Position numbers and translations under genes: made by a program. A stretch of DNA of 64,000 nt. It comes from a virus (Duplodnaviria; Heunggongvirae; Uroviricota; Caudoviricetes). The notes beneath the pieces were generated by a model, which did not search any database, was not told the DNA's origin, and saw only the letters and a program-made list of their open reading frames with translations. Shown piece by piece: positions 7,528 to 56,377 of the stretch; position 1 is the stretch's first letter, and each line of letters starts with the position of its first letter. The stretch lies in IMG/VR virus record IMGVR_UViG_3300025011_000002. The stretch is one strand, 5' to 3'.

Positions 7528-7528
7528 A

Positions 7529-7615: not shown

Positions 7616-7687
7616 CTGCCTCGACAGGACTCGAACCTGTAGTAGCCTCCTTAACAGGGAGGTGCATTACCATTTTGCTACAAGGCA
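7616..7687 (-). tRNA. tRNA-Asn (anticodon GTT)
   Basis: Acceptor TGCCTTG/CGAGGCA, anticodon stem CCTCC/GGAGG, loop CTGTTAA, T-arm ACAGGTTCGAGTCCTGT. Confidence 0.75.
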
Positions 7688-7707
7688 ATAAGAATATAAA
7701 TAACTTT

Positions 7708-19998: not shown

Positions 19999-20169
19999 TT
20001 ATTTATTAAGTTCTTTTATCATTTTATCTATTTTATTTGAACCTGCAACCGCATTATTATAAACAGAAGAATTTTGAGATTCATAACTATTACGAATATC
20101 ATCCATATAATTTTCGTATTCTATTATTTTATCAAAATATAATTGTAGTATTTTTAAATCATTAATCAT
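19999..20169 (-). CDS. small hypothetical protein
   Basis: 56-aa ORF between cca and dnaE. Confidence 0.25.
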   Translation of the reverse strand: MINDLKILQLYFDKIIEYENYMDDIRNSYESQNSSVYNNAVAGSNKIDKMIKELNK

Positions 20170-36006: not shown

Positions 36007-36019
36007 ATGGAAGATAAAA

Positions 36020-42420: not shown

Positions 42421-43184
42421 ATTTAGAGGAGCTTAAAACCGTAGGGTTTGTTCCGCATAATTCTATTATCAATGCAGATTGTCTTGAGGCAATGAAATAT
42501 ATTCAAGACAAAAGTATTGATATGATTTTATGTGATTTGCCTTATGGAACGACAGCTTGTAAATGGGATACAATCATTCCTTTTGAGCCACTTTGGGAAC
42601 AATACAACAGGATTATAAAAGATAAAGGCGTAATTGTCCTAACATCACAAGGTATATTTACCGCAAAATTAATATTAAGTAATGAAAAATTTTTCAAATA
42701 TAAAATTGTATGGGAAAAATCAAAATCTACTAATTTTTTAAATGCAAAAAAACAACCTTTAAGAAAACATGAAGATATTTGTGTTTTTTATAAAAATCAA
42801 CCAAACTATTTTCCTCAAATGAAAGAAGGTTTGCCATATAACAAAGGAACAAGAAAAGCTCAACTAACGGGAAGCTATGGAGATTTTAATCCAGTTCTTG
42901 TTAAAAGTGAAGGCAGTAGATACCCAACAGATATTATTTATTTTAAAACTGCTGAATCAGAAGGGGATGTTTATCACCCCACTCAAAAACCAGTAGCCCT
43001 CTTTGAATATCTAATAAAAACATACACAAACGAAGGTGATTTGGTTCTTGATAATTGTGCAGGAAGTGGAACAACGGGTGTGGCATGCTTAAATACAAAT
43101 AGAAATTATATTTTAATTGAAAAAGAAAAAGAATATATTGATATAATTAATAAAAGAATTGAGGAAAATAAATGCAACTTGTAA
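42417..43184 (+). CDS. DNA methyltransferase (N6-adenine/N4-cytosine, beta class)
   Basis: Motif IV 'ILCDLPYGT' precedes motif I 'VLDNCAGSGTTGVAC'; this is the N6_N4 MTase order. Confidence 0.65.
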   Translation: MNLEELKTVGFVPHNSIINADCLEAMKYIQDKSIDMILCDLPYGTTACKWDTIIPFEPLWEQYNRIIKDKGVIVLTSQGIFTAKLILSNEKFFKYKIVWEKSKSTNFLNAKKQPLRKHEDICVFYKNQPNYFPQMKEGLPYNKGTRKAQLTGSYGDFNPVLVKSEGSRYPTDIIYFKTAESEGDVYHPTQKPVALFEYLIKTYTNEGDLVLDNCAGSGTTGVACLNTNRNYILIEKEKEYIDIINKRIEENKCNL

Positions 43185-43876
43185 TTATAGCTGGTGGCAA
43201 AGGCACAAGACTTGGCTTAAAAGATATTCCAAAACCTATGGTGTTATTGGGTGATAAGCCTATTATACATCATCAAATAGACTTGGCTATAAGACATGGT
43301 ATAAAAGATATAGTTATTATAGGAGGTTATTTATCCGAAGTTATTGTTGATTATTTTAAAGAGGATATGCCAAATGGTATAGATTTAACTATCATACAAG
43401 AATTAAAACCAATGGGAACAGCAGGAGCTTTACATTCTGCTAAATCAATATTACAAGATAGATTTATGGTATTTTACGGTGATTTATATTTAGATTTTGA
43501 TATTAATAAATTTATTGAGTTTTATGAACACATTAGAGCGTCTGCTACAATAATTGTTCAGCCAAATGCCTATCCAGATGAAGCAGACTTATTAGAGGTG
43601 GATAATATGGTTGTAAAGAATATTTATCCAAAACCAAGAGGCAAAGATAAAGAATATAAAAATATATCAAATGCTGCGGTTTATATATTTGATAGAGCAA
43701 TACTTCATTTTATAGATTCTACAGAGCCACAAGATTTTGGCAAAGATGTGTTTCCAAGAATGTTGAATAATGGTGTTTCAATTATAGCTTATGAGACAGA
43801 TGAGATATTAAAAGATTTAGGAACTTTAGAAAAATTAGAAGGTGTTAGAAATGATTATTTCAAGAACTCCATTTAG
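43172..43876 (+). CDS. hddC: sugar-1-phosphate nucleotidyltransferase (HddC-like heptose-1-P guanylyltransferase)
   Basis: 'MQLVIIAGGKGTRLG' N-terminal signature; size 234 aa. Confidence 0.65.
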   Translation: MQLVIIAGGKGTRLGLKDIPKPMVLLGDKPIIHHQIDLAIRHGIKDIVIIGGYLSEVIVDYFKEDMPNGIDLTIIQELKPMGTAGALHSAKSILQDRFMVFYGDLYLDFDINKFIEFYEHIRASATIIVQPNAYPDEADLLEVDNMVVKNIYPKPRGKDKEYKNISNAAVYIFDRAILHFIDSTEPQDFGKDVFPRMLNNGVSIIAYETDEILKDLGTLEKLEGVRNDYFKNSI

Positions 43877-44816
43877 AATAAGTTTTGCTGGTGGCGGTAG
43901 TGATTTAAAAGAACACTATAAAAAATATGGTGGTGCTGTTTTGTCTGTCACAATAAATAAATATATATATCTTTCAATGCATCCTTATTTTGAAAAAGAT
44001 AAATATATTCTTAAATATTCAGAAATTGAAAAAACTAATTCAGTTAATAATATTCAACATAGAATTATTAAACAAGTTTTTAAAAATTATAATATAAAGG
44101 GAGTAGATTTTAATTCAAGTGCAGACATTCCATCTGGAACTGGATTGGGTTCTTCGTCTGCATTTACAGCAGGATTAATAAACTTATGTAATTCATATAA
44201 CAATGAAAAAATAAGCAAAGAAGATATTGCCAATGAAGCTTGCGATGTTGAGATAAACCAATTAAATTGCCCGATAGGAAAACAAGACCAATATGCTTCA
44301 ACTTATGGAGGATTAAACTTTATATTATTTAATCAAGATTGTTCTGTTACAGTTAAAAAGACTAATATGATTGAATGGAAAAAAGATAAATTGGAAAATA
44401 ATTTATTGTTATTCTATCTTGGCAAAACAAGGTCAGCAGACAAGGTTTTAAATACATATAATAGTAATAATAATAATTTAATAAAAATGGTTGACTTAGC
44501 ATATAGTTTAAATTCATCACTAAGTAAGAATAATATAGATTCAGTTGGAGATATTCTACATACAGGATGGATGTATAAGAAAGAGTTATCATCTGAAATA
44601 AGCAATACAGATATAGATTATTATTATAATTTAGCCATTAAAAATGGGGCAGAAGGTGGGAAACTATTAGGTGCTGGTGGGGGAGGATTTTTATTATTTT
44701 ATGTCAAAGAGGAAAATCAAGAGCGATTAAGAAATGTTTTAAGCGTTCTGAAAGAAGTAAGTTTTAAGTTTGAAGACAAAGGAGCAAGTATAATATATGA
44801 TGATGACGATAGATAA
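43842..44816 (+). CDS. hddA: GHMP kinase, D-glycero-alpha-D-manno-heptose 7-phosphate kinase-like (HddA)
   Basis: N-terminal 'RTPFRISFAGGGSDL'; GHMP motif 'PSGTGLGSSSAFTAGL'. Confidence 0.7.
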   Translation: MLEMIISRTPFRISFAGGGSDLKEHYKKYGGAVLSVTINKYIYLSMHPYFEKDKYILKYSEIEKTNSVNNIQHRIIKQVFKNYNIKGVDFNSSADIPSGTGLGSSSAFTAGLINLCNSYNNEKISKEDIANEACDVEINQLNCPIGKQDQYASTYGGLNFILFNQDCSVTVKKTNMIEWKKDKLENNLLLFYLGKTRSADKVLNTYNSNNNNLIKMVDLAYSLNSSLSKNNIDSVGDILHTGWMYKKELSSEISNTDIDYYYNLAIKNGAEGGKLLGAGGGGFLLFYVKEENQERLRNVLSVLKEVSFKFEDKGASIIYDDDDR

Positions 44817-45357
44817 TTATTTTGACAGATTAAAAAAGACTATTGATAATATTGATAAAGAAGAGATAAAAAATGTTGTAAATATACTTTTAAAAGCAAG
44901 GGCTAATGAAAAGCAAATATTTATAATGGGTAATGGAGGAAGTGCATCTACGGCTTCTCATTTTGCTTGTGATATAAATAAAGGTACAAAACAAAAAGAT
45001 AAAAAACCGTTTAGGGTAATATGTTTAAATGATAATATACCTACAATGTTGGCTTATGCAAACGACAGTAATTATGATAATATTTTTATAGAGCAGTTAG
45101 AAAATCTATTAAAACCAGGAGATGTCGTAATCGGAATATCTGGAAGTGGAAATTCTAATAATATTATAAATGCAATTGGATTTTCAAATTTTTTAAAAAT
45201 AACAACTGTGGGAATAACAGGCTTCGATGGGGGAATGTTAAAACAAATGAGTAAGCATTCTATTAATACAAATATAGATGATATGCAGATTTCTGAAGAC
45301 ATACATATGATATTGGTTCATGTAATAATGAAAGCTATATTGAATGAAAAATTATAA
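44797..45357 (+). CDS. gmhA: SIS-domain phosphoheptose isomerase
   Basis: 'IFIMGNGGSASTASHFACDINKG'. Confidence 0.75.
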   Translation: MMMTIDNYFDRLKKTIDNIDKEEIKNVVNILLKARANEKQIFIMGNGGSASTASHFACDINKGTKQKDKKPFRVICLNDNIPTMLAYANDSNYDNIFIEQLENLLKPGDVVIGISGSGNSNNIINAIGFSNFLKITTVGITGFDGGMLKQMSKHSINTNIDDMQISEDIHMILVHVIMKAILNEKL

Positions 45358-46099
45358 ATTAGTTGTTTTATTTGCACAATATGGTAATGAACAATATCCT
45401 GATGCACATAAAGATTTAGATAATTTTTTAAAAGATATTAATTGTAGTAAACAAAAAATTATAATAGATAATAAAACTGCATGTGATTATGATTATGTTT
45501 TTCCAAATGGAAATATTTATATACAAGGAGATAATTCAGCATGGGAATTTAGTGCTTGGGATAAGGGATTAAAATATGTTAAAGATTTAAATGTAGAATA
45601 TGATGCAATATTATTTGTAAACAGTTCTTTTATGAACAGCAGAATAAAAGGAATTGGTGGAAATCCAAAAACAGTTATAAATAATGAGTCAATAAGACTT
45701 TGCATTGAAGATAATAAAGCTATATTCCCTTGGCTCACAACAGGGGATAAATATTTTAAATTAGATAATAATGATGTAAGTTCTTGGTATAGAACAAATT
45801 GTTTCTTGTTAAATAAAAATCATATTAACGTCTTGCAATTTATTCAAACATATGATATAATATATTTAGATAAATTCATTAATAAAGAAATATCAGACAA
45901 TTATTTTAAAGCTGACGCTCCAATGAACAAGATATTAAAAGATTTTATAATATGGAGATTAACAGAAAGTTGGCATAATCCAATAGATATAAAAGAATCT
46001 TGGTCATTATTTAAAATGAAAACATTGGGATATTTTAATGAGTTTGGTTTAACGGCACGATTAAGGAATTGCAAAATAAATGTTATTTCAGAACAATAA
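45344..46099 (+). CDS. hypothetical protein, paralog of 48813..49856 (possible glycosyltransferase)
   Basis: Shares 'YKLVVLF.QY...YP', 'GDNSAWEFSAWDKGL.Y.K', 'YDAILFVN.SF', 'NWH' blocks with 48813..49856. Confidence 0.35.
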   Translation: MKNYKLVVLFAQYGNEQYPDAHKDLDNFLKDINCSKQKIIIDNKTACDYDYVFPNGNIYIQGDNSAWEFSAWDKGLKYVKDLNVEYDAILFVNSSFMNSRIKGIGGNPKTVINNESIRLCIEDNKAIFPWLTTGDKYFKLDNNDVSSWYRTNCFLLNKNHINVLQFIQTYDIIYLDKFINKEISDNYFKADAPMNKILKDFIIWRLTESWHNPIDIKESWSLFKMKTLGYFNEFGLTARLRNCKINVISEQ

Positions 46100-47261
46100 A
46101 AAAATAAAAATTGTTTTTTTATTTCAAGTTGCTTCGTTCTGGGCATCATGGGATTCATTCTATAATGAGTGTATAAAAGATGATAGACTTGAAATAAAAA
46201 TGGTTTTATTTGATGAAGAAATTTGCGAAAAAAGTCAAATGAAAACTGCAAGGGTGTTTTTAGAAAAAAATAATATTTCATTTATAGAATATAAGGATTA
46301 TAATATAGATAAAGATTGTCCTGATATTTGGGTGATGCAAACGCCTTATGATGAAGGGCATAGACCACTAGAGTTAAGGTCTGACTATATAAAAAACAAA
46401 GGAATAAAGATTGTTTATATAACTTATGGAATAGAAATATCTAATACTGTTGAATCAATAAATGCTCACTTCTTAAAAGGTGTTCCACAGAATGCATGGA
46501 AAATATATACTTTTTCTCTATTAATTAAAAAAGATTATGATAAATATATATCTCCAGAAATAACAAGAGCATTAGGGCATCCAAAGTTTGATGGATTGTA
46601 CAATAAAAATAATTTTCCATTGCCAGAAAATATTAAACAAAAAGCAAATGGAAGAAAAATTATATTATGGAAAGTTCATTTTCCAAAGATATTTTCAATA
46701 CCAAATACAGATAAAATTCATTATGTTACACCAGACTTTGAAGAATATAAAAAATTTTTAAATGAAATAAAAAAACATAAAGATTTATATTTTATATTTA
46801 TGCCTCATCCAAAGTTTTTTGAAATGATTTTAGAATACAATATTTTAAATGAACAAGAAATTAAAGACTTACAGAATGAATTAAACAGTTATGATAACTT
46901 ATATATGTATTTAGAAGATGATTATAGACCTATAATTTTGAATGCAGATTGTATAATTACTGATAGGTCTGCAATAATGGTAGAGGCATCGGTAGCAGAA
47001 AAGCCAATATTATATATGTATAATAATAAAAATATAGAGGCTATGACAGATGCTATATCTGAATTAATAAATACATATTATACTGGTGACACTTGTGAAG
47101 ATATGATAAATTTTATAGAAATGTTTAAAAGAGGTGAAGATATAAAAAAACAAGAAAGATTAAGTGCAATAAAGAAATATATTCCATTTTTTGATGGAAA
47201 TGCAGGTAAAAGAATTAAAGAAGATATTATATCTTCTTTTGAAAATGAAGCGATGGAGTAA
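46080..47261 (+). CDS. CDP-glycerol glycerophosphotransferase (TagB/TagF)-family protein
   Basis: 'ADCIITDRSAIMVEASVAEKPILYM' resembles the TagF-family C-terminal signature. Confidence 0.4.
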   Translation: MLFQNNKKIKIVFLFQVASFWASWDSFYNECIKDDRLEIKMVLFDEEICEKSQMKTARVFLEKNNISFIEYKDYNIDKDCPDIWVMQTPYDEGHRPLELRSDYIKNKGIKIVYITYGIEISNTVESINAHFLKGVPQNAWKIYTFSLLIKKDYDKYISPEITRALGHPKFDGLYNKNNFPLPENIKQKANGRKIILWKVHFPKIFSIPNTDKIHYVTPDFEEYKKFLNEIKKHKDLYFIFMPHPKFFEMILEYNILNEQEIKDLQNELNSYDNLYMYLEDDYRPIILNADCIITDRSAIMVEASVAEKPILYMYNNKNIEAMTDAISELINTYYTGDTCEDMINFIEMFKRGEDIKKQERLSAIKKYIPFFDGNAGKRIKEDIISSFENEAME

Positions 47262-47264
47262 ATA

Positions 47265-47840
47265 ATGGATTTAAATTTTACAGGTGAAAGACAGGTAAGT
47301 AAAACACTAGAGGGTATTGAAAAAAAACATTTAGATAGATATTGTTTTGCTAAAAATAAGGTAAGAGAGTTATTATCAAAAGATAATATAAAAATATCTG
47401 ATATTGGTTGTGGTATTGGATATGGTTCATCTATATTATCTGAACTTAATTGCTCTATTGATTCATACGACATATCAAAAGAAGCAATTGATTTTGCTAA
47501 CAAATATTATAAGAAAGACAATATAAATTATTTTACAAAAGACTGTTCTGATTCTGATTTTTTAACAAAACATTATGATGTAATTGTGTCTTTTGAATTT
47601 TTAGAACATATTAATATTGATAAATCTAAAAAAATATTACATAGAATTATTGAAAAAAGCGATTTATCAATTATATCTATCCCTATAAATAAGCCTTCGC
47701 CTTTTCATAAAATAGTATTAAAAAAAGAAGAAGTTAAACAATACTATGACGAGGCGTTGAAAAGTTTTTCAAATAAACATATAATAGAAGAATGGATTCA
47801 AGATACTATATTTTACATAGTAGTAATAGGATTAAAATAA
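47265..47840 (+). CDS. class I SAM-dependent methyltransferase
   Basis: Motif I 'ISDIGCGIGYGS'; 'VSFEFLEH'. Confidence 0.6.
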   Translation: MDLNFTGERQVSKTLEGIEKKHLDRYCFAKNKVRELLSKDNIKISDIGCGIGYGSSILSELNCSIDSYDISKEAIDFANKYYKKDNINYFTKDCSDSDFLTKHYDVIVSFEFLEHINIDKSKKILHRIIEKSDLSIISIPINKPSPFHKIVLKKEEVKQYYDEALKSFSNKHIIEEWIQDTIFYIVVIGLK

Positions 47841-48823
47841 TGACAATATATTTTAGAACACCCGAAAACCCAAACCCTTGTGGTGGCATAAAAAAGTTAT
47901 ATGACCAAACAGATATTCTTAATAAAAATGGTATTGAGGCATATGTAATTCACTTTGATAAAACAGAAACTTTTAGATGCGATTGGTTTGAAAATGATAC
48001 AAAAATAGTTTATAATAAAACACTTATTCAAGAAGATGATATAGTTGTTATCCCAGAAATATATGATTACCATATGTTTAATTTATTCCCTAAAGGCAAA
48101 AAGGTTATATTCAATCAAAATGCTTATAATACATTCAGACCATATGGAACAATAAATGATAATAGTATATTAAATTATAACAATCCCGACTTGCTTGGAG
48201 TTATGGTTGTTTCTGAAGATAATAAAAAATATTTAGAACTTGCTTTTCCAAATAATAAAATTTACAGGATTCATATATCAATCGACACAGATAAATTCTT
48301 TCCAAAAGAAAATAAGAAAAAACAAATATGTTATATGCCGAGAAAAAATAAACAGGATGTTGACCAAGTAATAAGTATTTTAAAATTAAGAGGTTACTTA
48401 AAAGATTATAATTTTGTGGCTATTGAAAATATGACAGAAGAAGAATTAATAAAAACTTATCAAGAATCTGAAATATTTTTAAGTTTTGGTTATCCAGAAG
48501 GTTGTGCAGCTCCTCCACTTGAAGCAATGGCTTGTGGATGTATAGTTATTGGATATACAGGAATGGGATGTAGAGAATATATGAATACAGATTATTCTTT
48601 CCCAATTGAACATGGGGATATAGTCTCTTTTGTAAAAACAATAGAAGAAAAGATTTATTCATTTAATGCAATTAACAACTGCCCTTATTATAATGAATTT
48701 GAAAATTTAAACAACAAAGCTATTAAATTTATAAAAGAAAATTATACAAAAGAAAGAGAAAAATCAGATATATTAAATTTTTGGAACGAAATATTAAATA
48801 AAGGAAATAATAATGTATTATAA
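47840..48823 (+). CDS. glycosyltransferase (GT-B fold, GT4-like)
   Basis: 'EGCAAPPLEAMACGCIVIGYTGMGCREYM' matches the GT4 C-terminal motif. Start moved to internal ATG (MTIYFRT) to avoid overlap. Confidence 0.6.
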   Translation: MTIYFRTPENPNPCGGIKKLYDQTDILNKNGIEAYVIHFDKTETFRCDWFENDTKIVYNKTLIQEDDIVVIPEIYDYHMFNLFPKGKKVIFNQNAYNTFRPYGTINDNSILNYNNPDLLGVMVVSEDNKKYLELAFPNNKIYRIHISIDTDKFFPKENKKKQICYMPRKNKQDVDQVISILKLRGYLKDYNFVAIENMTEEELIKTYQESEIFLSFGYPEGCAAPPLEAMACGCIVIGYTGMGCREYMNTDYSFPIEHGDIVSFVKTIEEKIYSFNAINNCPYYNEFENLNNKAIKFIKENYTKEREKSDILNFWNEILNKGNNNVL

Positions 48824-49856
48824 ATTAGTTGTACTTTTTCTACAATATGATTCAGATAAGTATCCAAATTCTTTATTTTATTTACAAAAATATTTAAGCA
48901 GAATAAGTCAAAATGATGTTCAAATAATAGTTATAGATAATAAGCAAAAAGTAAATTATAAAGAAAGAATCGAAGATTATTATTATGGCGAACCAATTAC
49001 AATATCAGGAGACAATACTATTTGGGAGTTTTCAGGATGGGATAAAGGATTAGAGTATCTTAAAGAAAATAATATTGATTATGATGCAATACTTTTTGTA
49101 AATGATTCATTTTTAGCTCCATCAGGTTATGATTCTCCAATAACAATAATAAATGATGAAAATATATTTGATTGTATAAAAAACAACAACATTATCGGAA
49201 ATATATGTAATGTAGGAAATGGATTTAAAATAGATAAATATAATGTAAAAAAATATATAAGGACTCATTGCTTTATGCTATCTAAAGACTCTGTTGAAAA
49301 GATAAAGACTCTTGTGACTTTGGATATTAATTTTATTAACAGATGTATAAATAATATTTCAACTAAGTTCTATTTCTTAGGTAAGGCTCCAATTTGTATA
49401 GACACAATGAAGAATATTGTCGTTAATTTAACTCAAAATTGGCATAGCAAATTCAATATTCATGATAATTGGGGATTATTTAGAATGAAATCCTTAGTAA
49501 TGCTTAATGAATTAACATTATATACAAGAATATCCAGTATAATAGGAGATAATAAAGTACAAATGAATATAAAAGAGCTTATAAACAATATTCCAAATGA
49601 TAAAAAAATAGTATGTGTGGGAGCTGCAACAAATGCTCACAAGATGATGAAGGAAAGTGACTTACCAAAGAAGAATGTGGTTGCATTTCTGGATAACTAC
49701 ATTAAGGGAGATATTAATGGAATACCAATATATACACCCGAAGAGTTCGTTAATAAAAAGATAAATTATGACTTTGCAATTTTTTGTATGTTCCAACCAG
49801 AAACGATTAAAAATCAATTAGATAGCTTAGGAATTATAACAAAAGATGAATATTGA
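48813..49856 (+). CDS. hypothetical protein, paralog of 45344..46099 with a C-terminal extension
   Basis: Conserved blocks shared with 45344..46099. Confidence 0.35.
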   Translation: MYYKLVVLFLQYDSDKYPNSLFYLQKYLSRISQNDVQIIVIDNKQKVNYKERIEDYYYGEPITISGDNTIWEFSGWDKGLEYLKENNIDYDAILFVNDSFLAPSGYDSPITIINDENIFDCIKNNNIIGNICNVGNGFKIDKYNVKKYIRTHCFMLSKDSVEKIKTLVTLDINFINRCINNISTKFYFLGKAPICIDTMKNIVVNLTQNWHSKFNIHDNWGLFRMKSLVMLNELTLYTRISSIIGDNKVQMNIKELINNIPNDKKIVCVGAATNAHKMMKESDLPKKNVVAFLDNYIKGDINGIPIYTPEEFVNKKINYDFAIFCMFQPETIKNQLDSLGIITKDEY

Positions 49857-50466
49857 TAAAAATAATACCCTCATTATATTTAGTACAGGCGATTCTAATT
49901 ATAATGAATTAAAAGAACATATTATCCCTTTACAGCAAAGTTATGATACGTTGGGTCTTAATATGTTTAATTGTTTCCATTATGGCTGTACATATTGGAA
50001 TTGGAATGATAGATTTTTATTTAGAGATTGTTTATATGAACATTATATAGAAATAGAAGACAATAAAAAGCCTTTATTAGTTACTACAGACGAAGTAACT
50101 AAAAGAGAATTTATTAATAATAATATAAAACCATATTATACTTATGAAGCAACAACAAAATATATACCTACAAATAAAGAGGATAATAAATTATATATAT
50201 TTAAAGCCAGTTTGCATACAGCCATTAATACAGCCATTGTTGAGGGTTATAAGAATTGCATTATATTATTTGCTGATTTATCTTATGATAAGCATGCCCA
50301 TTTTTATGATTCAGAAGAAACAAAAAATAAGATGCAACCAAGACCAACTAAAAGATTAAATATAATGAGAGAATCTTTATATAATTTTAAACAATATGCA
50401 AATATTTATAAAACAAATCATAATGATTTAGATTTAGAATATATTGATATAAAAGAAATTATATAA
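49846..50466 (+). CDS. hypothetical protein (full-length copy of duplicated gene flanking the NAD island)
   Basis: 206 aa. N-terminal 'MFNCFHYGCTYWNWND' and C-terminal 'RESLYNFK...NIYKTNHNDLDLEYIDIKEII' are near-identical to 55800..56210. Confidence 0.35.
   Translation: MNIDKNNTLIIFSTGDSNYNELKEHIIPLQQSYDTLGLNMFNCFHYGCTYWNWNDRFLFRDCLYEHYIEIEDNKKPLLVTTDEVTKREFINNNIKPYYTYEATTKYIPTNKEDNKLYIFKASLHTAINTAIVEGYKNCIILFADLSYDKHAHFYDSEETKNKMQPRPTKRLNIMRESLYNFKQYANIYKTNHNDLDLEYIDIKEII
50368..50466 (+). repeat. ~99-bp direct repeat (copy 1) bracketing the NAD island
   Basis: Near-identical to 56112..56210, with differences clustered in the first ~40 nt. A further 51-nt perfect match lies at 49960..50010 versus 55927..55977. 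Confidence 0.6.
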
Positions 50467-50481
50467 AAAGGAGAATATTAA

Positions 50482-51396
50482 ATGTATCTAATACATAATA
50501 GTAACATAAATTCATATTTTACAATTAATAAAAAAGATAAAATGGCATTTTTATCTTTAATTGATAATTTTTTTGAAGATGATGATAACGTATTTAGAAT
50601 AATTTATGATAAAGACGAATTAAATAAAATATTAAATGATAGATTTTTATCAAAAAACAGGGGAGAAAAATATAATGAAGAATATACATCTGTAACAAAA
50701 ATAGTTGGAGATTTATTCCCTATGGATTTGGATAAGTCCAGAGGATTAATTTATTGGGCTAAAAATATATCTAAAGAAGATTATGCTTTACAACAAGAAA
50801 TAAATGAAGAATGTCAAAATAAAGGAACATATCTTCATGCTGTAATTGAACATATTTTAAAAGATAAGAAACATTATTCTTTAAGAGATATTCAAAGTCA
50901 TATAAATAATCAAGCTGTAGAACAGAATCAATTATGCTCTAAGGCATTATTTGAATATCCGAAGTACAAAGACAAGGGAAAAAATAATTGGCTCAATAAC
51001 GAGCTTCCATATATTGATACTATTTATTCTGAATTATTTATAAAAGATGATGAGCTTGGATTACAGGGAACTTTGGATGGTTTATTAATTTATAATAAAA
51101 TTTTAACATTATGGGATTTAAAATCAACATCTAAAATTGATAAAAAAACACAAAAAGGTGTTCATAAAACTCCAAGTACAATGAATAATTATCATAGACA
51201 ATTAGCAATGTATTCTTATTTATTAGAAAAACATGGATATATTACTAAAAAAGAATTTCAAGATTTGGCTTTTAAAATAGATTGTTTCCATTGGATAAGA
51301 GAAGATTATAGGCAATATGATTTTGAAAACGCATATATATTAAGTTTAATTGAAGATATTTTAAAAGTTACTGAATGGTTTAATAATAGTAAATAG
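50482..51396 (+). CDS. PD-(D/E)xK nuclease, RecB/Cas4-like
   Basis: 'ELFIKDDELGLQGTLDGLLIY...LTLWDLKSTSK' (D...D-x-K) and 'QLAMYSYLL' (QxxxY motif of the RecB nuclease family). Confidence 0.45.
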   Translation: MYLIHNSNINSYFTINKKDKMAFLSLIDNFFEDDDNVFRIIYDKDELNKILNDRFLSKNRGEKYNEEYTSVTKIVGDLFPMDLDKSRGLIYWAKNISKEDYALQQEINEECQNKGTYLHAVIEHILKDKKHYSLRDIQSHINNQAVEQNQLCSKALFEYPKYKDKGKNNWLNNELPYIDTIYSELFIKDDELGLQGTLDGLLIYNKILTLWDLKSTSKIDKKTQKGVHKTPSTMNNYHRQLAMYSYLLEKHGYITKKEFQDLAFKIDCFHWIREDYRQYDFENAYILSLIEDILKVTEWFNNSK

Positions 51397-51402
51397 GTAA
51401 AT

Positions 51403-51936
51403 ATGGCAATATTTAAAAAGAAAAAAAAGGTCTATAAAAAGACTTTTAATTCTCAAGATATAAAAAGAATACTATTGAATGAATTTAGATACAACAAAAA
51501 CTATACCTATGCATGTACAGAATGCGGTAGGTATAGTGCTGATGTTTTATTATATAATATATTTTTAATAGAGATAGAAGTAAAATGTTCGTTATCTGAT
51601 TTTTATGCTGATTTTCGTAAAAAGAAACATTTATTATATTTAAGAGAAAGAAGTAATGCTGGTAGTTATTCTAAAAATATGATTCCTAATAAATTTTATT
51701 TTGCTGTTTCAGATAAATTATATGAACCTGTTAATAATTTTTTAAAAGATAATCCACAATTTAATAAATATGGAATAATAGTAGTTTATCCAAGTGAAAA
51801 AATATCAATAAAAAAATCTGCTAAACTTTTGCATTCAGAATCTCCATCTCAAATGATGTTGGATATTATGATTAGAAGAATGTCATCAGAAATTTGTGTA
51901 TTATATAATAAATTGAATGAAGAAACATCTACTTGA
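51403..51936 (+). CDS. hypothetical protein (possible second PD-(D/E)xK-like nuclease)
   Basis: 'YSADVLLYN...IFLIEIEVKCS' D...ExK-like; weak. Confidence 0.25.
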   Translation: MAIFKKKKKVYKKTFNSQDIKRILLNEFRYNKNYTYACTECGRYSADVLLYNIFLIEIEVKCSLSDFYADFRKKKHLLYLRERSNAGSYSKNMIPNKFYFAVSDKLYEPVNNFLKDNPQFNKYGIIVVYPSEKISIKKSAKLLHSESPSQMMLDIMIRRMSSEICVLYNKLNEETST

Positions 51937-51983
51937 TTTTCTTTTATAATATGTTATAATATTATAAAAGGAGATAAAAAATA

Positions 51984-52835
51984 ATGTTAGATTTACATAA
52001 AGATTTTGAAATATTTAACTTTCCAGGTGGAGAAGTTAATGTAAGATTAAAAAATTTTCCAACAGATGATTGTTTTATTGTAACATTAATAGCAAGATTA
52101 AAAAATTCTAACGATATAATGTCATTATTATTAGCTGTGGATGTATTAAAAAGAGAAAATGTTTTTATTAATGAATTAATAATACCATATTTTCCATATG
52201 CAAGACAAGATAGAGTTTGTAATAAAGGCGAAGCATTATCTGTTAAAGTTATAGCAGATTTAATTAATAGTTTAAATATACCAAAAGTAACAATATTAGA
52301 CCCACATTCAGATGTAACTCCTGCATTAATTAATAATGTAAATATTATTAGTCAAGTAGAATGTTTTACTAAATCAATGTGGAATTTTGGTAAATCTAAT
52401 TTAGAAATTAGAAATGATTATTATATTATTTGTCCTGATGCTGGAGCAAGAAAAAGGATTGATACTATAGCTAAAGAAGTGCAAACAGATAAGGTTATAT
52501 ATTTTAATAAAAAAAGAGATTTATTAACTGGAAATATTTTAGGGATAGATTCTGAATATCAAAATTTTAAAAATAAAAAATGTATTATTATTGATGATAT
52601 TTGTGATGGTGGTCGTACATTTATAGAAATAGCTAAATATTTAAAATCATATGATGCTGATGAAATTATTTTATATATTACTCATGGTATTTTTAGTAAA
52701 GGTCTTGAATGCTTAAAAGAAGCAGGAATAGATAAAATATTTACTACCAATAGTTATCAAGAAATTGATGATAGATATTTGAATAAAGGTACGGTTCCTC
52801 AAGTTTTACAATATGATATATTTCAAGGAATTTAA
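51984..52835 (+). CDS. prs: ribose-phosphate pyrophosphokinase (PRPP synthetase)
   Basis: 'IIPYFPYARQDRV' and PRPP-binding 'CIIIDDICDGGRT'. Confidence 0.8.
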   Translation: MLDLHKDFEIFNFPGGEVNVRLKNFPTDDCFIVTLIARLKNSNDIMSLLLAVDVLKRENVFINELIIPYFPYARQDRVCNKGEALSVKVIADLINSLNIPKVTILDPHSDVTPALINNVNIISQVECFTKSMWNFGKSNLEIRNDYYIICPDAGARKRIDTIAKEVQTDKVIYFNKKRDLLTGNILGIDSEYQNFKNKKCIIIDDICDGGRTFIEIAKYLKSYDADEIILYITHGIFSKGLECLKEAGIDKIFTTNSYQEIDDRYLNKGTVPQVLQYDIFQGI

Positions 52836-53112
52836 TATGATTGGGTATAAAGCTTTTTCTAAAAATATGACAAATAGAAAAGGATATATTTTTAATATAG
52901 ATAAAGAACTTATTTATCATATTAATAAGCCTATAAAATTAAGAGGAACAGGATTTCATTTTTGTAAAAATATTTTATCTTGCCTTATATGGTATCAAAA
53001 TATTTTTAATATTACAATATATAAAATAGAAATTTTAGGAGATGTAATAGATAGTAAATTTACACCTAAGTCAGTAACTAATAAATTTAGATTTATAGAA
53101 AAAGTATTTTAA
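52813..53112 (+). CDS. hypothetical protein
   Basis: 99-aa ORF between prs and nadV. Confidence 0.3.
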   Translation: MIYFKEFNMIGYKAFSKNMTNRKGYIFNIDKELIYHINKPIKLRGTGFHFCKNILSCLIWYQNIFNITIYKIEILGDVIDSKFTPKSVTNKFRFIEKVF

Positions 53113-53129
53113 TAAATAAGGAGAAAAAT

Positions 53130-54641
53130 ATGAAAAAATTACCAGCAACATTACTTTGTGATTTTTATAAAATAAGTCATAGAGAACAATATGATGAAGA
53201 CACAGAACAAATTTATTCTACTTGGACTGCAAGAGGTTCAAGAATAGAAGGAATTAATAAAGTTGTTGTTTTTGGACTTCAAGGATTTATTAAAAAATAT
53301 CTTATTGATTATTTTAATGAGAATTTCTTTAATCGTTCTTGGCAAGAAGTTGTTTCTGAATATAAAAGAGTTATTAAATATACATTAAATATTGATAATC
53401 CAAGCATACAACATATATGGGATTTGCATGAATTAGGATATTTACCATTATTAATTGAAGCAGTACCAGAAGGAACAAAATTACCAATAAGAGTTCCATC
53501 AGCAACAGTAAGAAATACACATCCTAAATTTTTCTGGCTAACAAATTTTATTGAAACATTACTTTCATGTGAAACTTGGCAACCAACAACATCTGCTACA
53601 ATAGCGAATAGTTATAAAAATATATTAAAAAAATGGTCAGATAAAACTTGCGATAATGATTACCATGTTCCATTTCAAGGTCATGATTTTTCAATGAGAG
53701 GTATGCCTTGTTTAGAAGCAGCATGCACATCTGGAGCAGGACATCTTTTAAGTTTTGTTGGAACAGATACAATTCCTGCAATATTATATCTTGAAAATTA
53801 CTATAATGCGGATATTGAAAAAGAACTTGTAGGTACTTCTATACCAGCTACAGAACATTCTGTAATGTGTTGCAATGGAAGAGACGAATATAGTTCTATT
53901 AAAAGATTAATAACTGAAGTTTATCCAAATGGATTTGTTTCTATAGTTTCTGATACTTGGAATTTATGGGATATATTAACAAAAACATTACCAAAATTAA
54001 AAGATGAAATAATGAATCGTGATGGTAGAGTCGTTATAAGACCAGATAGCGGTAATCCTGTAGATATTATTTGTGGAACAAGAAGAGAAATAGAAACAAG
54101 AGAACTTTCAAATATTAATGAAATTAGAAAAGGTGTTATTGAGTCACTTTGGGATGTATTTGGTGGTACAATAAATTCAAAAGGATATAAAGTATTAGAT
54201 TCTCATATAGGGGCTATATATGGTGATGCTATCACTATGGAGAGAGCAGAAGAAATATGTAGTAGACTTGAAGAAAAAGGATTTGCAAGTAGCAATATTG
54301 TTTTTGGCATTGGTTCATTTACTTATACTTATAATACAAGAGATACATTTGGATTCGCTCAAAAATCAACATATGCTGTAAAAGGCGGTCAAGAAGTCTT
54401 CCTATATAAAGACCCTATAACAGATGATGGTCTTAAAAAATCACAAAAAGGCTTAGTTTATGTTTTGGATTTAGAAGGGAATATTACATATAAAGATGAA
54501 TTTAATATACAAGAGCATGAAAAATTACAACCATTTGGACTATTAAGACCTATATTTAAAAATGGAGAATTATTAGTAGATGAAAATCTTGCAGAAATAA
54601 GAAAAAGGGTAGAAGATAATGAATTATTACGATATTCGTAG
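53130..54641 (+). CDS. nadV: nicotinamide phosphoribosyltransferase (NAMPT/NadV)
   Basis: 'VVVFGLQGFIKKYL', 'IEAVPEGTKLP...KFFWLTNFIETLL', 'FQGHDFSMRG...SFVGTDT', 'IRPDSGNPVD' align with NAMPT conserved blocks. Confidence 0.85.
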   Translation: MKKLPATLLCDFYKISHREQYDEDTEQIYSTWTARGSRIEGINKVVVFGLQGFIKKYLIDYFNENFFNRSWQEVVSEYKRVIKYTLNIDNPSIQHIWDLHELGYLPLLIEAVPEGTKLPIRVPSATVRNTHPKFFWLTNFIETLLSCETWQPTTSATIANSYKNILKKWSDKTCDNDYHVPFQGHDFSMRGMPCLEAACTSGAGHLLSFVGTDTIPAILYLENYYNADIEKELVGTSIPATEHSVMCCNGRDEYSSIKRLITEVYPNGFVSIVSDTWNLWDILTKTLPKLKDEIMNRDGRVVIRPDSGNPVDIICGTRREIETRELSNINEIRKGVIESLWDVFGGTINSKGYKVLDSHIGAIYGDAITMERAEEICSRLEEKGFASSNIVFGIGSFTYTYNTRDTFGFAQKSTYAVKGGQEVFLYKDPITDDGLKKSQKGLVYVLDLEGNITYKDEFNIQEHEKLQPFGLLRPIFKNGELLVDENLAEIRKRVEDNELLRYS

Positions 54642-55602
54642 AGAGATTAAAGATTTAGTAAGACAAAAAGGAGGATTCTGTAATGCTCATTCTCATCTTG
54701 ATAAATCTTATACTTTAACGAAAGATAATAAAGATATTTGTAATAAACATTTAAAAAATAAATGGAATTTAATAGATAGTATAAAAAGAAATAGTACAAT
54801 ATATGATATAAAAGATAGAATAGAATATTCTCTTATAAAACAAACATTATATAATACTCATAATATTTTAACATTTATAGATGTTGATAGCGTTGCTAAA
54901 AGTACAGGTCTTGAGGCTTTAGAATTAGCTAAAGAAAATTATTTAGCAACGCAAATATATTCTGCTAATCAAACAATTAAAGGAATATTAAATAAAAAAG
55001 AATACGAATGGTTTTTAAAAGGAGCAGAACAATGTGATTTTATAGGAAGTTTACCTAAAGTAGATGATAATATAGAATTACATTTAGATATACTATTTGA
55101 TACTGCTAAAAATTTTAATAAACACATACAAATTCATTGTGACCAATTTTCTTTAATAGAAGAAAAAGAAACAGAATTAATATTAAAATATATAGATAAA
55201 TATAATTGGCAAGGCAAAGTATCATTAATACATTGTCTTTCTTTAGCTTCTCAAGAAAAGTCTTATAGGTATAAAATATATGAAAAATTAGAAGAAACAA
55301 GAACAAATATAATTATAGCTCCATTAATTTGGATTGATACACCAAGAAATGAAGAATTACAACCTCGTCATAATTGTTTAACTCCAGTAGATGAAATGTT
55401 AGAATTTAACATTAATATAGCTATGGGAACAGATAATATTTCTGATTTAAATGGTATGTTGTCAAATGGAGATATGATGGAAGAATTAATCTTTTTAATT
55501 CGAGCATGTAGATTATATAATAAAATAGAAGAATGTATTAATATAGCCACAATAAATGGTAATAAGATTATAAATAATAGATTAAATAATAATATAATTT
55601 AA
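54619..55602 (+). CDS. amidohydrolase-fold deaminase/hydrolase (CodA-like metal-binding motifs)
   Basis: 'CNAHSHLDKS', 'IQIHCDQ', 'LIHCLS', 'AMGTDNISD' match the H-x-H...H...H...D metal ligands of the amidohydrolase superfamily. Confidence 0.55.
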   Translation: MNYYDIRREIKDLVRQKGGFCNAHSHLDKSYTLTKDNKDICNKHLKNKWNLIDSIKRNSTIYDIKDRIEYSLIKQTLYNTHNILTFIDVDSVAKSTGLEALELAKENYLATQIYSANQTIKGILNKKEYEWFLKGAEQCDFIGSLPKVDDNIELHLDILFDTAKNFNKHIQIHCDQFSLIEEKETELILKYIDKYNWQGKVSLIHCLSLASQEKSYRYKIYEKLEETRTNIIIAPLIWIDTPRNEELQPRHNCLTPVDEMLEFNINIAMGTDNISDLNGMLSNGDMMEELIFLIRACRLYNKIEECINIATINGNKIINNRLNNNII

Positions 55603-55634
55603 AAAGCAAGTTTTAAATATATAAGGAGCTTAAA

Positions 55635-55787
55635 ATGCAAAAGGAAGTCTTTGAAAAAATAAAAGTGGCTCTTAAACGTATTAACTTTAATGAAGATACA
55701 TATATTATTTTCCCTGATTCTGATTTTAAAAGATATAAGGAATCAAGTATTGAAGTTTCTCACAAAAAACTATTTGGATTATTTTAA
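55635..55787 (+). CDS. small hypothetical protein
   Basis: 50-aa ORF with RBS AGGAG 8 nt upstream. Confidence 0.25.
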   Translation: MQKEVFEKIKVALKRINFNEDTYIIFPDSDFKRYKESSIEVSHKKLFGLF

Positions 55788-55799
55788 TATGGGGGAATC

Positions 55800-56210
55800 A
55801 TGCATAATATAACTCCAGATAATACATTATTTATTTTTGGATGCGGAGAATCAAATTATAATGAATTGCTACCATATATAGCACATATACAAGCAAATTG
55901 GAAAACATTAGGCATGAATATGTTTAATTGTTTCCATTATGGCTGTACATATTGGAATTGGAATGATTTATATGTTTGGAGTAGATTTCTTCAAGATAAA
56001 TATTTAGAAATAGAAGACATAAAAAAACCTCGTCTTGTGACTACAGACGAGGTTAATAAAAAAGAGGTATTAACATCAAGTATAAAACCATATTATACTT
56101 ATGATATTATTAGAGAATCTTTATATAATTTTAAAAAACATATTAATATATATAAAACAAATCATAATGATTTAGATTTAGAATATATTGATATAAAAGA
56201 AATAATTTAA
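55800..56210 (+). CDS. truncated paralog of 49846..50466 (internal deletion copy)
   Basis: 136 aa. Shares the N-terminal and C-terminal blocks with 49846..50466 but lacks ~70 central residues. Confidence 0.35.
   Translation: MHNITPDNTLFIFGCGESNYNELLPYIAHIQANWKTLGMNMFNCFHYGCTYWNWNDLYVWSRFLQDKYLEIEDIKKPRLVTTDEVNKKEVLTSSIKPYYTYDIIRESLYNFKKHINIYKTNHNDLDLEYIDIKEII
56112..56210 (+). repeat. ~99-bp direct repeat (copy 2) bracketing the NAD island
   Basis: See copy 1. Confidence 0.6.
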
Positions 56211-56377
56211 GTAGAAGTTGTTTTTAATTTTCCATTTTCATCAAATTGTAATTTTTCTAATATAACTAATATTGCATCTAAAGTTACTTTTGACGAAACA
56301 GATTCATCATATATTTTTTTTAACCATTCATTTGAACCTTGAGCCATTTTTAATCTCTCTTTCTTTTTTTTAAATAA

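What the first reader, a model, noticed from the sequence alone, without database searches (positions are those of the whole stretch)
49846..56210. NAD+ salvage island (Prs + NadV + amidohydrolase + nuclease) bracketed by duplicated gene copies
A 5.6-kb block encodes a RecB/Cas4-like PD-(D/E)xK nuclease, PRPP synthetase (PYFPYARQDRV), nicotinamide phosphoribosyltransferase NadV (clear NAMPT blocks) and an amidohydrolase-fold enzyme. It lies between a full-length ORF (49846..50466) and a truncated paralog of it (55800..56210). The two copies share a 51-nt perfect repeat and a ~99-bp near-identical 3' repeat, which is the footprint of insertion by duplication and gives a recombination substrate for excision. 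Phage-encoded Nam-to-NMN synthesis is a known counter to NAD+-depleting immunity (Thoeris, DSR, Sir2/SEFIR-type effectors). Supplying PRPP alongside NadV is a self-sufficient variant. No NMN adenylyltransferase is evident in the window, so the last step may use the host enzyme or an unrecognised ORF such as 52813..53112 or 51403..51936.
Basis: partly seen in the sequence, partly recalled or inferred. Interest (0 to 1): 0.8.

Follow-up and report, generated by a model that had tools for sequence, protein, structure and literature searches.

The report
Phage NAD+-rebuilding operon (NARP1) island
An uncultivated, very AT-rich groundwater phage carries the already known two-enzyme NARP1 pathway, which rebuilds NAD+ from the fragments left by bacterial NAD+-destroying defences, on a 5.7-kb insertion flanked by two copies of one gene; it is an ordinary new member of a known anti-defence system, not a new PRPP/NMN salvage variant.

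Summary
Genes at 50482-55787 lie between a 206-aa ORF (49846-50466) and a 136-aa paralog (55800-56210). The copies share a perfect 51-nt patch and a 114-nt 3' repeat (89%, with a 53-nt perfect core). The paralog has an in-frame 71-codon internal deletion rather than a truncation.

The "Prs + NadV without NMNAT" pair is the signature of NARP1 (Osterman et al. 2024). Adps pyrophosphorylates ADP-ribose, and Namat joins ADPR-PP to nicotinamide to give NAD+ directly, so no NMNAT is needed.
- The NadV-like protein is 62% identical to the crystallised SPbetaL1 Namat (693 bits, against about 206 for true Nampt). It keeps all 20 listed ligand contacts, including the adenine clamp GSFTYTYNTRD.
- The Prs-like protein fails every Prs equivalog cut-off and carries the Adps motif DPHSDVTPALIN. 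It scores 235 bits on an Adps HMM, against 112 for E. coli Prs.

A 960-nt relative contig shows the empty site, and three more relatives have no island. The nuclease, phrog_2776 protein and amidohydrolase are unrelated passengers; the last two flank ThyX in a relative. Only the DUF7666 gene between adps and namat is unexplained.

Verdict: new member of a known kind, low to moderate interest.

The parts
49846..50466 (+). ORF206, copy A. Full-length left bracket and last gene of a sugar/glycosyltransferase cluster. Function unknown.
   Evidence: ORF; no Pfam, PHROG or NCBIfam hit. Only 5 homolog clusters in 5.8 billion proteins. In relatives L008, L009, L010, L052 and L053 it is the terminal rightward gene. 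The AF2 model is weak (pLDDT 58) and has no significant fold match.
49960..50010 (+). Perfect 51-nt patch shared with 55917-55967, inside an otherwise ~70% identical 5' repeat (49849-50108 vs 55806-56065).
   Evidence: The L010 ortholog differs at 6 of these 51 positions, so the identity reflects gene conversion between the two copies rather than constraint alone.
50360..50473 (+). Left copy of the 114-nt 3' direct repeat. It runs 7 nt past the stop of copy A, and the left island junction lies at its end.
   Evidence: 101/114 identical to 56104-56217, with a 53-nt perfect core at 50407-50459. L010 differs at 8/53 positions in the core.
50482..51396 (+). PD-(D/E)xK (Cas4/RecB-like) exonuclease. 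Passenger gene with no evidence of an NAD+ role.
   Evidence: PF12705 at 1.5e-4, phrog_298 exonuclease at 5.6e-19. Absent from 32 other NARP1 loci.
51403..51936 (+). phrog_2776 protein of unknown function. It is a backbone gene of this phage group, not an NMNAT.
   Evidence: phrog_2776 at 3.7e-17; no Pfam hit even at E<=10. A 37% identical homolog in L009 lies just upstream of ThyX and the amidohydrolase.
51984..52835 (+). adps: ADP-ribose pyrophosphate synthetase (Prs-like), step 1 of NARP1.
   Evidence: phrog_619 at 2e-86. It fails all Prs equivalog cut-offs, for example 134 vs 296 bits. Identity is 33%, 29% and 45% to SPbetaL1, FADO and Av-05 Adps, against 26% to E. coli Prs; the motif DPHSDVTPALIN replaces Prs DLHAEQIQGFF. 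It scores 235 bits on an HMM of 32 Namat-adjacent Adps, against 112 for E. coli Prs, and K176 aligns with the SPbetaL1 active-site K162.
52837..53112 (+). DUF7666 protein (91 aa) lying between adps and namat. Unexplained; a candidate accessory or a passenger.
   Evidence: PF24703 at 7e-16. No Macro or RyR hit. No tblastn hit in 50,697 phage records, and only one distant homolog cluster. Absent from 32 other NARP1 loci. The AF2 model is unusable (pLDDT 54).
53130..54641 (+). namat: nicotinamide ADP-ribose transferase (Nampt-like), step 2 of NARP1.
   Evidence: 62% identical to SPbetaL1 Namat. PDB 9W5X/9W5W score 693 bits, against about 206 bits for human and bacterial Nampt (PDB identity). All 20 listed ligand-contact residues are identical, including the clamp residues R38, F397, Y401, T403 and D405; the motif is GSFTYTYNTRD (criteria from PMC12774641).
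54619..55602 (+). PRK06886-type amidohydrolase (cytosine-deaminase-like TIM barrel with HxDQ in place of HxDE). It overlaps the namat stop by 23 nt. Probably pyrimidine-related and not shown to belong to NARP1.
   Evidence: NF005365 at 290 bits, below its 340 cut-off. Closest PDB match is CodA at 1e-15. The family is cellular (Blattabacterium, Flavobacteriales, CPR). Metal ligands H24, H26, H173, H205 and D272 are kept, and Q176 replaces CodA E217 across the family. Its neighbours are pyrD/E/F, dcd and uridine kinase in L048 and ThyX in L009. It is absent from cultured phages and from 32 NARP1 loci.
55635..55787 (+). 50-aa ORF with no homologs.
55800..56210 (+). ORF136, copy B. A paralog of ORF206 with an in-frame 71-codon internal deletion. 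Its 5' part is diverged (70% nt) and its 3' part is near-identical. Right bracket.
   Evidence: dN/dS between the 5' parts is about 0.41. Its 3' end and downstream flank are orthologous to those of the single gene in L010 (96/109 and 135/144 nt).
56207..56347 (-). 46-aa leftward gene. It marks the conserved right flank and the start of the convergent tail-fibre block.
   Evidence: 43/46 residues are identical to the gene that directly follows the single ORF206 ortholog in L010. 61034-61816 hits tail-fibre PHROGs.

Best explanation
The core of the island is a NARP1 operon, adps (51984-52835) and namat (53130-54641).

Mechanism, inferred from orthology to characterised enzymes: a host NADase effector (Thoeris ThsA, DSR1/2, SIR2-HerA, SEFIR and similar) splits NAD+ into ADP-ribose and nicotinamide. 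Adps uses ATP to pyrophosphorylate ADP-ribose to ADPR-PP. Namat displaces the pyrophosphate with nicotinamide and regenerates NAD+ directly. No PRPP, NMN or NMN adenylyltransferase is needed.

Location and origin: the operon lies in a ~5.7-kb block (about 50474-56103) inserted at the junction between the rightward glycosylation cluster and the leftward tail-fibre block of a ~123-kb, 25.7% GC groundwater phage. The block is bracketed by the resident gene ORF206 and a diverged, internally deleted second copy. Most likely it was brought in by recombination with a related phage that carried its own ORF206 homolog to the right of the block. Gene conversion between the two copies then created the perfect 51-nt and 53-nt patches.

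The other genes (Cas4-like exonuclease, phrog_2776, PRK06886-type amidohydrolase, 50-aa ORF) are passengers from the phage-group backbone and are not NAD+ enzymes. The role of the DUF7666 gene between adps and namat is unknown.
For: Shown by computation.

Namat identity:
- It is 62% identical to SPbetaL1 Namat.
- It scores 693 bits to PDB 9W5X/9W5W, which are SPbetaL1 Namat, against about 206 bits to true Nampt.
- All 20 ligand contacts and the diagnostic GSX-phi-X-phi-X-phi-TRD clamp and SCL Arg are conserved (criteria).

Adps identity:
- It fails all Prs equivalog cut-offs.
- It shares the Adps-specific PHSDV(T/S)xAL motif and lacks the Prs N- and C-terminal extensions.
- It scores 235 bits against 112 for E. 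coli Prs on an independent Adps HMM, and the K162 equivalent is present.

Operon logic:
- In 29 of 32 related viral loci an adps lies within 1.6 kb upstream of namat (one more has it downstream). In 13 of these more than 250 nt, usually with ORFs, lie between them.
- The experimentally validated FADO and SPbetaL1 operons are among the best Namat hits.
- There is no NMNAT in 64 kb.

Insertion:
- L010 matches the copy-A upstream flank (75%) and 5' ORF (86%), then the copy-B downstream flank (94%). Its 46-aa gene is 43/46 identical.
- L009, L052 and L053 lack the island.

Gene conversion: the perfect patches differ at 6/51 and 8/53 positions in the L010 ortholog.

Passengers: homologs of phrog_2776 and the amidohydrolase flank ThyX in L009.

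From the literature: the biochemistry and anti-defence phenotypes of NARP1 (10.1101/2024.02.11.579819; PMC12774641).
Against: - No enzyme assay or infection phenotype exists for these proteins.
- Adps is only 29-45% identical to reference Adps proteins, and no explicit phylogeny with many cellular Prs or with KVP40 Nampt was built.
- Namat enzymes retain PRPP-dependent NMN synthesis in vitro, so some NMN production cannot be excluded.
- Only 64 kb of the ~123-kb genome was inspected for an Nmnat.
- The empty-site evidence rests mainly on one 960-nt contig, 76% identical at protein level. The other relatives are distant (35-59%).
- Island GC content equals that of the flanks, so composition gives no independent sign of import.
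- No excised variant was seen among 24 contigs of this phage population.
- The host and its defence systems are unknown.
Confidence: 0.8

Rival explanations
1. The Prs-like enzyme makes PRPP and the NadV-like enzyme makes NMN from nicotinamide. A host or unrecognised phage NMN adenylyltransferase completes NAD+ synthesis, as a NARP2-like or classical salvage route.
For: Pfam and NCBIfam names point this way (Pribosyl_synth, NAPRTase/NAMPT_N, NF006629). Namat enzymes can make NMN from PRPP in vitro when ADPR-PP is absent.
Against: - The same expectation was tested and refuted for this gene pair: Bas63 still countered SIR2-HerA in a pncC/nadR double mutant, and SPbetaL1 Adps gave no product in the PRPP-synthetase control reaction but made ADPR-PP from ADP-ribose and ATP.
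- The window proteins fall with Adps and Namat by score, motifs and clamp residues.
- NARP2-type Nampt genes come with a phage Nmnat in 94% of cases, and none is present in the window.
Confidence: 0.07
2. The pair is a general auxiliary metabolic module. It raises NAD+ for phage replication regardless of host immunity and is not a counter-defence.
For: The window is rich in nucleotide-metabolism and repair genes: NrdD, thymidine kinase, RNA ligases and a CCA-adding enzyme. NARP2 raises NAD+ even without a defence system.
Against: - NARP1 needs free ADP-ribose and nicotinamide.
- In Bas63 infection, ADPR-PP appeared only when the NADase defence was present.
- The phage DNA ligase here is the ATP-dependent type (phrog_114), so no obvious NAD+-hungry phage enzyme is visible.
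Confidence: 0.06
3. Origin by local tandem duplication. ORF206 duplicated in place, the block then accumulated between the copies, and copy B is a decaying remnant. No diverged donor homolog was imported.
For: The 3' 114 nt are duplicated at 89% identity on both sides of the block. Composition is uniform. Gene conversion shows the copies interact.
Against: - Copy B's 5' 260 nt are only 70% identical to copy A (dS 0.77; dS 1.24 to L010), whereas the 3' part is 89% identical.
- Homology begins at the start codon, and the upstream sequence is unrelated (57/111).
- Copy B keeps an open frame with dN/dS about 0.41, which is not the pattern of a free-decaying remnant.
Confidence: 0.25

Closest known systems
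NARP1 (Adps + Namat) of Bacillus phages SPbetaL1 and FADO and E. coli phage Bas63 (Osterman et al. 2024, bioRxiv 10.1101/2024.02.11.579819; Namat structures 9W5X/9W5W, PMC12774641)
   Same: - The gene order is the same: adps upstream of namat on one strand.
- Namat is 62% (SPbetaL1) and 59% (FADO) identical, with identical catalytic and adenine-clamp residues.
- Adps has the same PHSDVT.AL motif and active-site Lys.
- No Nmnat is present.
   Different: - A DUF7666 gene sits between the two genes.
- A PRK06886-type amidohydrolase overlaps the namat stop.
- Adps is closest to enterobacterial and Pseudomonas phage Adps (43-45%), while Namat is closest to Bacillus and Alicyclobacillus phage Namat.
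- The host is unknown, the genome is 25.7% GC and comes from groundwater, and nothing has been tested experimentally.
NARP1-AP (Adps-Adpp-Namat, Vibrio phage Gary; bioRxiv 10.64898/2026.01.28.702374) and RyDEP-associated NARP1 (phage DyoEdafos; bioRxiv 10.64898/2026.05.28.727677)
   Same: The layout has three genes, with a small extra gene inside or next to the NARP1 operon. In these systems the extra enzyme converts another NAD+-derived molecule (ADPR-1''-phosphate, or 2'/3' cADPR) into ADP-ribose for Adps.
   Different: The extra gene here is DUF7666. It shows no Macro or RyR domain signal at Pfam E<=10, and it does not recur in 32 other NARP1 loci.
NARP2 (Nampt + bifunctional Nmnat, Vibrio phage KVP40)
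   Same: It has a Nampt-family enzyme and the same end result, which is restoring NAD+ against NADase defences.
   Different: NARP2 goes through PRPP and NMN and needs a phage Nmnat, with no Adps. Here an Adps is present, no Nmnat is found in 64 kb, and the Nampt-family protein carries the Namat clamp.
Cellular ribose-phosphate diphosphokinase (Prs) and nicotinamide phosphoribosyltransferase (Nampt/NadV)
   Same: The folds and core catalytic residues are shared, so Pfam and NCBIfam give these names.
   Different: - Prs equivalog cut-offs are failed by more than 160 bits.
- The ribose-5-phosphate loop region is replaced.
- Scores to true Nampt are about 490 bits lower than to Namat.

Membership tests
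NARP1 | The Prs-family protein belongs to the phage Adps clade, not to cellular Prs. | tested here: met
   It fails all Prs equivalog cut-offs. It scores 235 bits against 112 for E. coli Prs on an HMM of 32 Namat-adjacent Adps built without the window protein. The PHSDVTPAL motif is shared with SPbetaL1, FADO and Av-05. No full phylogeny with many cellular Prs was made.
NARP1 | A Namat homolog lies in the immediate vicinity of adps (within ten genes; true for 97% of the Adps clade). | tested here: met
   namat starts 295 nt after the adps stop, on the same strand, with one 91-aa gene between them.
NARP1 | [quoted passage not shown] | tested here: met
   The motif is GSFTYTYNTRD (F397, Y401, T403, R404, D405), and R38 aligns with SPbetaL1 R40. 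The criteria come from PMC12774641.
NARP1 | Intact catalytic residues: Namat F189, D215, R306 and the catalytic His; Adps K162. | tested here: met
   Namat has F187, D213, R304 and H243 in TEHS. Adps K176 aligns with K162 and is invariant in the alignment.
NARP1 | No Nmnat in the same genome (NARP1 and NARP2 were never found together). | tested here: inconclusive
   None was found in the 64-kb window by motif scan or by phmmer/tblastn with NadD and NadR. About 59 kb of the 123-kb contig was not examined.
NARP1 | Enzymatic activity: ADP-ribose + ATP gives ADPR-PP, then ADPR-PP + nicotinamide gives NAD+, with rescue from NADase defences. | not testable with these tools
   This needs protein purification with LC-MS and infection assays.
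NARP2 | A KVP40-type Nampt together with a phage Nmnat, and no Adps. | tested here: not met
   An Adps is present. No Nmnat was found in the window. The Nampt-family protein matches Namat structures far better than Nampt structures. KVP40 Nampt itself was not compared.
NARP1-AP / RyDEP-extended NARP1 | A Macro-domain ADPR-1''-phosphatase (Adpp) or an RyR-domain glycosidase (RyDEP) lies in or next to the operon. | tested here: not met
   The interposed protein hits only DUF7666 at Pfam E<=10. No island ORF has a Macro or RyR hit.
Transposon / integrative island | A transposase, integrase or recombinase gene, and short identical target-site duplications or att sites. | tested here: not met
   No such gene appears among the island ORFs. 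The flanking repeats are diverged copies of a whole gene (61-76% aa), not short identical duplications.
Cytosine deaminase (CodA) family, for 54619-55602 | HxH, His and Asp metal ligands plus the catalytic HxxE glutamate (E217). | tested here: not met
   The metal ligands are conserved, but Q176 replaces E217 here and in all ten aligned homologs. The protein scores below the CodA-type NCBIfam cut-offs.

The most novel reading that the evidence does not exclude
The DUF7666 gene wedged between adps and namat, and possibly the translationally overlapping HxDQ amidohydrolase, could be a new kind of NARP1 accessory. It would be analogous to Adpp (Macro) and RyDEP, converting some other NAD+-derived defence product or signal into ADP-ribose or nicotinamide, or inhibiting an NADase. 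That would extend NARP1 against a defence NARP1 alone cannot beat.
Probability: 0.1. Interest if true: 0.6.

Novelty: new member of a known kind. Interest (0 to 1): 0.3.

Why it matters
It shows that a Prs-like plus NadV-like pair in a phage should be read as NARP1, which rebuilds NAD+ directly from ADP-ribose and nicotinamide. It should not be read as PRPP/NMN salvage that lacks a last step. It extends NARP1 to a very AT-rich, uncultivated groundwater phage.

It also gives one of the few cases where the acquisition site of the operon can be reconstructed. An empty-site relative exists, the flanks are gene copies, and gene conversion between those copies is visible. The unexplained DUF7666 gene inside the operon is a cheap candidate to test alongside the known accessories Adpp and RyDEP.

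Beyond that, the finding is ordinary: NARP1 occurs in about 4% of sequenced phages.

Tried and rejected
- **Close relatives in phage databases.** Megablast of 16 kb against 50,697 phage records found only a 54-nt conserved adps motif in Proteus phages. IMG/VR scans with ORF206, the amidohydrolase, the nuclease and the 659-aa tail-side protein found nothing.
- **DUF7666 context.** tblastn against phages found nothing. The big protein search found only itself and one 108-aa protein on a 511-nt contig. The AF2 model had pLDDT 54, so no fold search was run on it.
- **ORF206 structure.** The model had pLDDT 58 and pTM 0.64. Foldseek against the PDB gave only generic Rossmann-like matches (E >= 0.036, TM <= 0.33), which is uninformative.
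- **Promoter and terminator scan.** Promoter-like counts equalled the shuffles (77 vs 78) and one terminator-like site was found against 1.1 expected, so no transcription units can be drawn. The TTGATT-16-TATAAT site at 51933-51960, just upstream of adps, is only a candidate.
- **Composition.** Island GC content (21-30%) is the same as the flanks, so it gives no signal of foreign origin.
- **Bas63 Adps.** An attempt to locate it through Av-05 relatives did not list it. SPbetaL1 and FADO were used as the validated references instead.
- **Amidohydrolase as an NAD+ enzyme.** Rejected as unsupported. Its family is cellular housekeeping, its neighbours elsewhere are pyrimidine genes or ThyX, and it never accompanies NARP1 in 32 loci.
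- **Excision variants.** None was seen among the 24 contigs carrying the exact ORF206 protein.

Full report
**What is there**

The window is 25.7% GC. It is identical in gene content to a 123-kb contig from a Rifle groundwater metagenome (ENA ERZ909594), and the same arrangement was seen in the other contigs that were read.

It is clearly a large phage. It encodes a DNA polymerase, DnaB helicase, DnaG primase, ATP-dependent ligase, NrdD, RNA ligases, RtcB, a CCA-adding enzyme, ten tRNAs and tail-fibre proteins.

The rightward gene block ends with a sugar-nucleotide and glycosyltransferase cluster at 41449-49856. After that cluster come:
- ORF206 (49846-50466)
- a Cas4-like PD-(D/E)xK exonuclease (50482-51396)
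- a phrog_2776 protein (51403-51936)
- a Prs-like protein (51984-52835)
- a DUF7666 protein (52837-53112)
- a Nampt-like protein (53130-54641)
- an amidohydrolase (54619-55602)
- a 50-aa ORF (55635-55787)
- ORF136 (55800-56210)

The leftward tail-fibre block starts straight after, with a 46-aa gene at 56207-56347.

**The observation**

The two bracketing ORFs are paralogs, 61% identical over the first 100 residues and 76% over the last 41.
- The perfect 51-nt repeat is 49960-50010 = 55917-55967.
- The 3' repeat is 50360-50473 vs 56104-56217, 101/114 identical, with a perfect 53-nt core.
- Copy B is not truncated. It lacks 71 internal codons in frame.
- No NMNAT-like motif or NadD/NadR-like ORF occurs anywhere in the 64 kb.

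**What the NAD+ genes are**

A phage operon annotated as Prs plus Nampt, with no Nmnat, is the configuration in which Osterman et al. discovered NARP1. They expected PRPP and NMN. They found instead that the pathway works without the host NMN routes, that the Prs-like enzyme (Adps) pyrophosphorylates ADP-ribose, and that the Nampt-like enzyme (Namat) joins ADPR-PP to nicotinamide to give NAD+ (10.1101/2024.02.11.579819). [quoted passage not shown] Nampt of the other pathway (NARP2) comes with a phage Nmnat in 94% of cases.

*Namat.*
- The best phage hits include SPbetaL1 (62%) and FADO (59%), the two Bacillus phages whose NARP1 was validated.
- Against the PDB it scores 693 bits to 9W5X/9W5W, the SPbetaL1 Namat structures, but about 206 bits to human and bacterial Nampt.
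- All 20 residues reported to contact nicotinamide, the NMN part, the AMP part and the adenine ring are identical. They include the clamp residues R40, F392, Y396, T398 and D400, here R38, F397, Y401, T403 and D405.
- The diagnostic motif reads GSFTYTYNTRD (criteria).

*Adps.*
- It passes only the broad Prs subfamily model and fails every Prs equivalog model by more than 160 bits.
- It lacks the N- and C-terminal extensions of E. coli Prs. It carries DPHSDVTPALIN where Prs has DLHAEQIQGFF, as do SPbetaL1, FADO and Av-05 Adps and most of 29 Adps genes found beside Namat in IMG/VR contigs.
- An HMM built from those 32 Adps, without the window protein, gives 235 bits to the window protein and 112 to E. 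coli Prs. The lysine mutated in SPbetaL1 Adps (K162) is conserved.

In 29 of 32 viral loci found with the Namat protein, adps lies just upstream. I therefore file the pair as NARP1. The chemistry is inferred by orthology and has not been shown for these proteins.

**The rest of the block**

None of the other island genes accompanies NARP1 in the 32 related loci.

*Amidohydrolase.*
- It belongs to the PRK06886 family, a cellular family present even in Blattabacterium, Flavobacteriales and CPR bacteria.
- It keeps the metal ligands of cytosine deaminase, but a glutamine replaces the catalytic glutamate throughout the family.
- Its neighbours elsewhere are pyrimidine genes (pyrD/E/F, dcd, uridine kinase), phage RNA-ligase genes, or ThyX.

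*Relative L009.* The order there is phrog_2776 homolog, a small ORF, ThyX, amidohydrolase, an HNH endonuclease, then the glycosylation genes and the ORF206 homolog. So phrog_2776 and the amidohydrolase are backbone genes of this phage group. In the window, NARP1 occupies the slot between them that ThyX occupies in L009.

*Overlap with namat.* The 23-nt overlap of the amidohydrolase with namat is matched by a 1-nt overlap with thyX in L009, so it is not evidence of a functional link.

*DUF7666.* This gene is unexplained. It has no Macro or RyR signal, almost no homologs and an unusable model. Extra genes between adps and namat are common: more than 250 nt in 13 loci, 11 of them with ORFs. They are diverse and include a nucleoside deoxyribosyltransferase-like gene, an M16 peptidase-like gene and a VWA gene. 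Known accessories are Adpp and RyDEP.

**Is it an insertion?**

Yes, as far as the data go.
- The 960-nt contig L010 carries a single full-length ORF206 ortholog (76% aa).
- Its upstream flank and 5' part match the copy-A side (75% and 86% nt).
- Its 3' end matches copy B slightly better than copy A (96 vs 90 of 109).
- Its downstream flank matches the sequence after copy B (135/144 nt; 46-aa gene 43/46) and not the sequence after copy A.
- In L009, L052 and L053 the homolog also abuts the convergent genes with no island.

There is no transposase or integrase, and the repeats are diverged gene copies rather than target-site duplications.

Copy B is a mosaic. Its 5' 260 nt are 70% identical to copy A, and homology starts at the start codon with an unrelated upstream region. 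Its 3' 114 nt are 89% identical. This fits recombination with a related phage that carried a diverged ORF206 homolog to the right of the block, followed by rejoining in the resident 3' end. A local tandem duplication remains possible (about 0.25).

The two perfect patches are not explained by constraint, because the L010 ortholog differs at 6/51 and 8/53 positions. They indicate gene conversion between the copies. The repeats are therefore recombinationally active. No excised variant was seen, and composition gives no signal.

**Verdict**

The sequence observation is confirmed, and the idea of an inserted anti-NADase module is supported. The proposed PRPP/NMN mechanism and the search for a missing NMNAT are superseded by NARP1, and the nuclease and amidohydrolase are not part of it.

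This is a new member of a known kind. What is new is modest: an environmental, very AT-rich host range, a reconstructable acquisition site, and one unexplained gene inside the operon.

Noticed in passing
window 41449-49856 (+): A sugar-nucleotide and glycosylation cluster in a phage. It contains an epimerase/dehydratase, an N6/N4 DNA methylase-like gene, an NTP-transferase, a GHMP kinase, a SIS isomerase (a GDP-heptose-like route), a glycerophosphotransferase-like gene, a methyltransferase, a GT1 glycosyltransferase and two paralogous unknowns (45344-46099 and 48813-49856, 39% identical). ORF206 is its last gene.
   Followed up: partly
window 8462-9157(-), 15696-16322(-), 22210-22713(-), 29555-30055(-), 38790-39506(+): Five paralogous HNH homing-endonuclease genes (phrog_374, about 50% identical to one another and to L009 2938-3606) are scattered through the replication region. 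They are a likely source of recombination and gene conversion in this genome.
   Followed up: partly
window 35984-38797 (+): A 937-aa DnaG-type primase has a LAGLIDADG-like domain hit (residues 230-287) between the zinc finger and the catalytic core. This may be an intein or an inserted homing endonuclease.
   Followed up: no
window 1176-7688 and 20162-21478 (-): A tRNA toolkit: ten tRNA genes (3728-7688), RtcB (2501-3733), an RNA ligase (1176-2324) and a CCA-adding enzyme (20162-21478). Together these look like a tRNA repair or replacement set against anticodon nucleases.
   Followed up: no
window 54619-55602 and homologs P0009-P0127: The PRK06886 amidohydrolase family has an invariant HxDQ where cytosine deaminase has the catalytic HxDE. 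It is kept in the reduced genomes of Blattabacterium. It sits beside pyrD/E/F, dcd and uridine kinase in one cellular contig (L048) and beside thyX in phage contig L009. This looks like an uncharacterised pyrimidine-related enzyme.
   Followed up: partly
window 62673-63560 (-): A patatin-like phospholipase (PF01734, 3.8e-26) is encoded near the tail-fibre genes.
   Followed up: no
window 11085-13103 (-): An anaerobic ribonucleotide reductase (NrdD-like) is present, which suggests an anaerobic host. A thymidine kinase lies at 34958-35545, and no ThyX was found in the window, unlike relative L009.
   Followed up: no
L018 5343-5810; L026 4888-5991; L045 4441-5127: Other uncultivated-phage NARP1 operons carry different genes between adps and namat. 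L018 has a nucleoside 2-deoxyribosyltransferase-like protein, L026 an M16 peptidase-like protein and L045 a VWA-domain protein. The first is a plausible untested NARP1 accessory.
   Followed up: no
window 51933-51960 (+): A TTGATT-16-TG-TATAAT promoter-like site lies in the 47-nt gap just upstream of adps. Such sites are at chance frequency in this AT-rich DNA, so it is only a candidate.
   Followed up: no
window 52584-52637: A 54-nt stretch of adps (the DDICDGG loop region) is 91-93% identical at DNA level to Proteus phages 3H10_20 and Privateer. The proteins are otherwise well under 60% identical.
   Followed up: no
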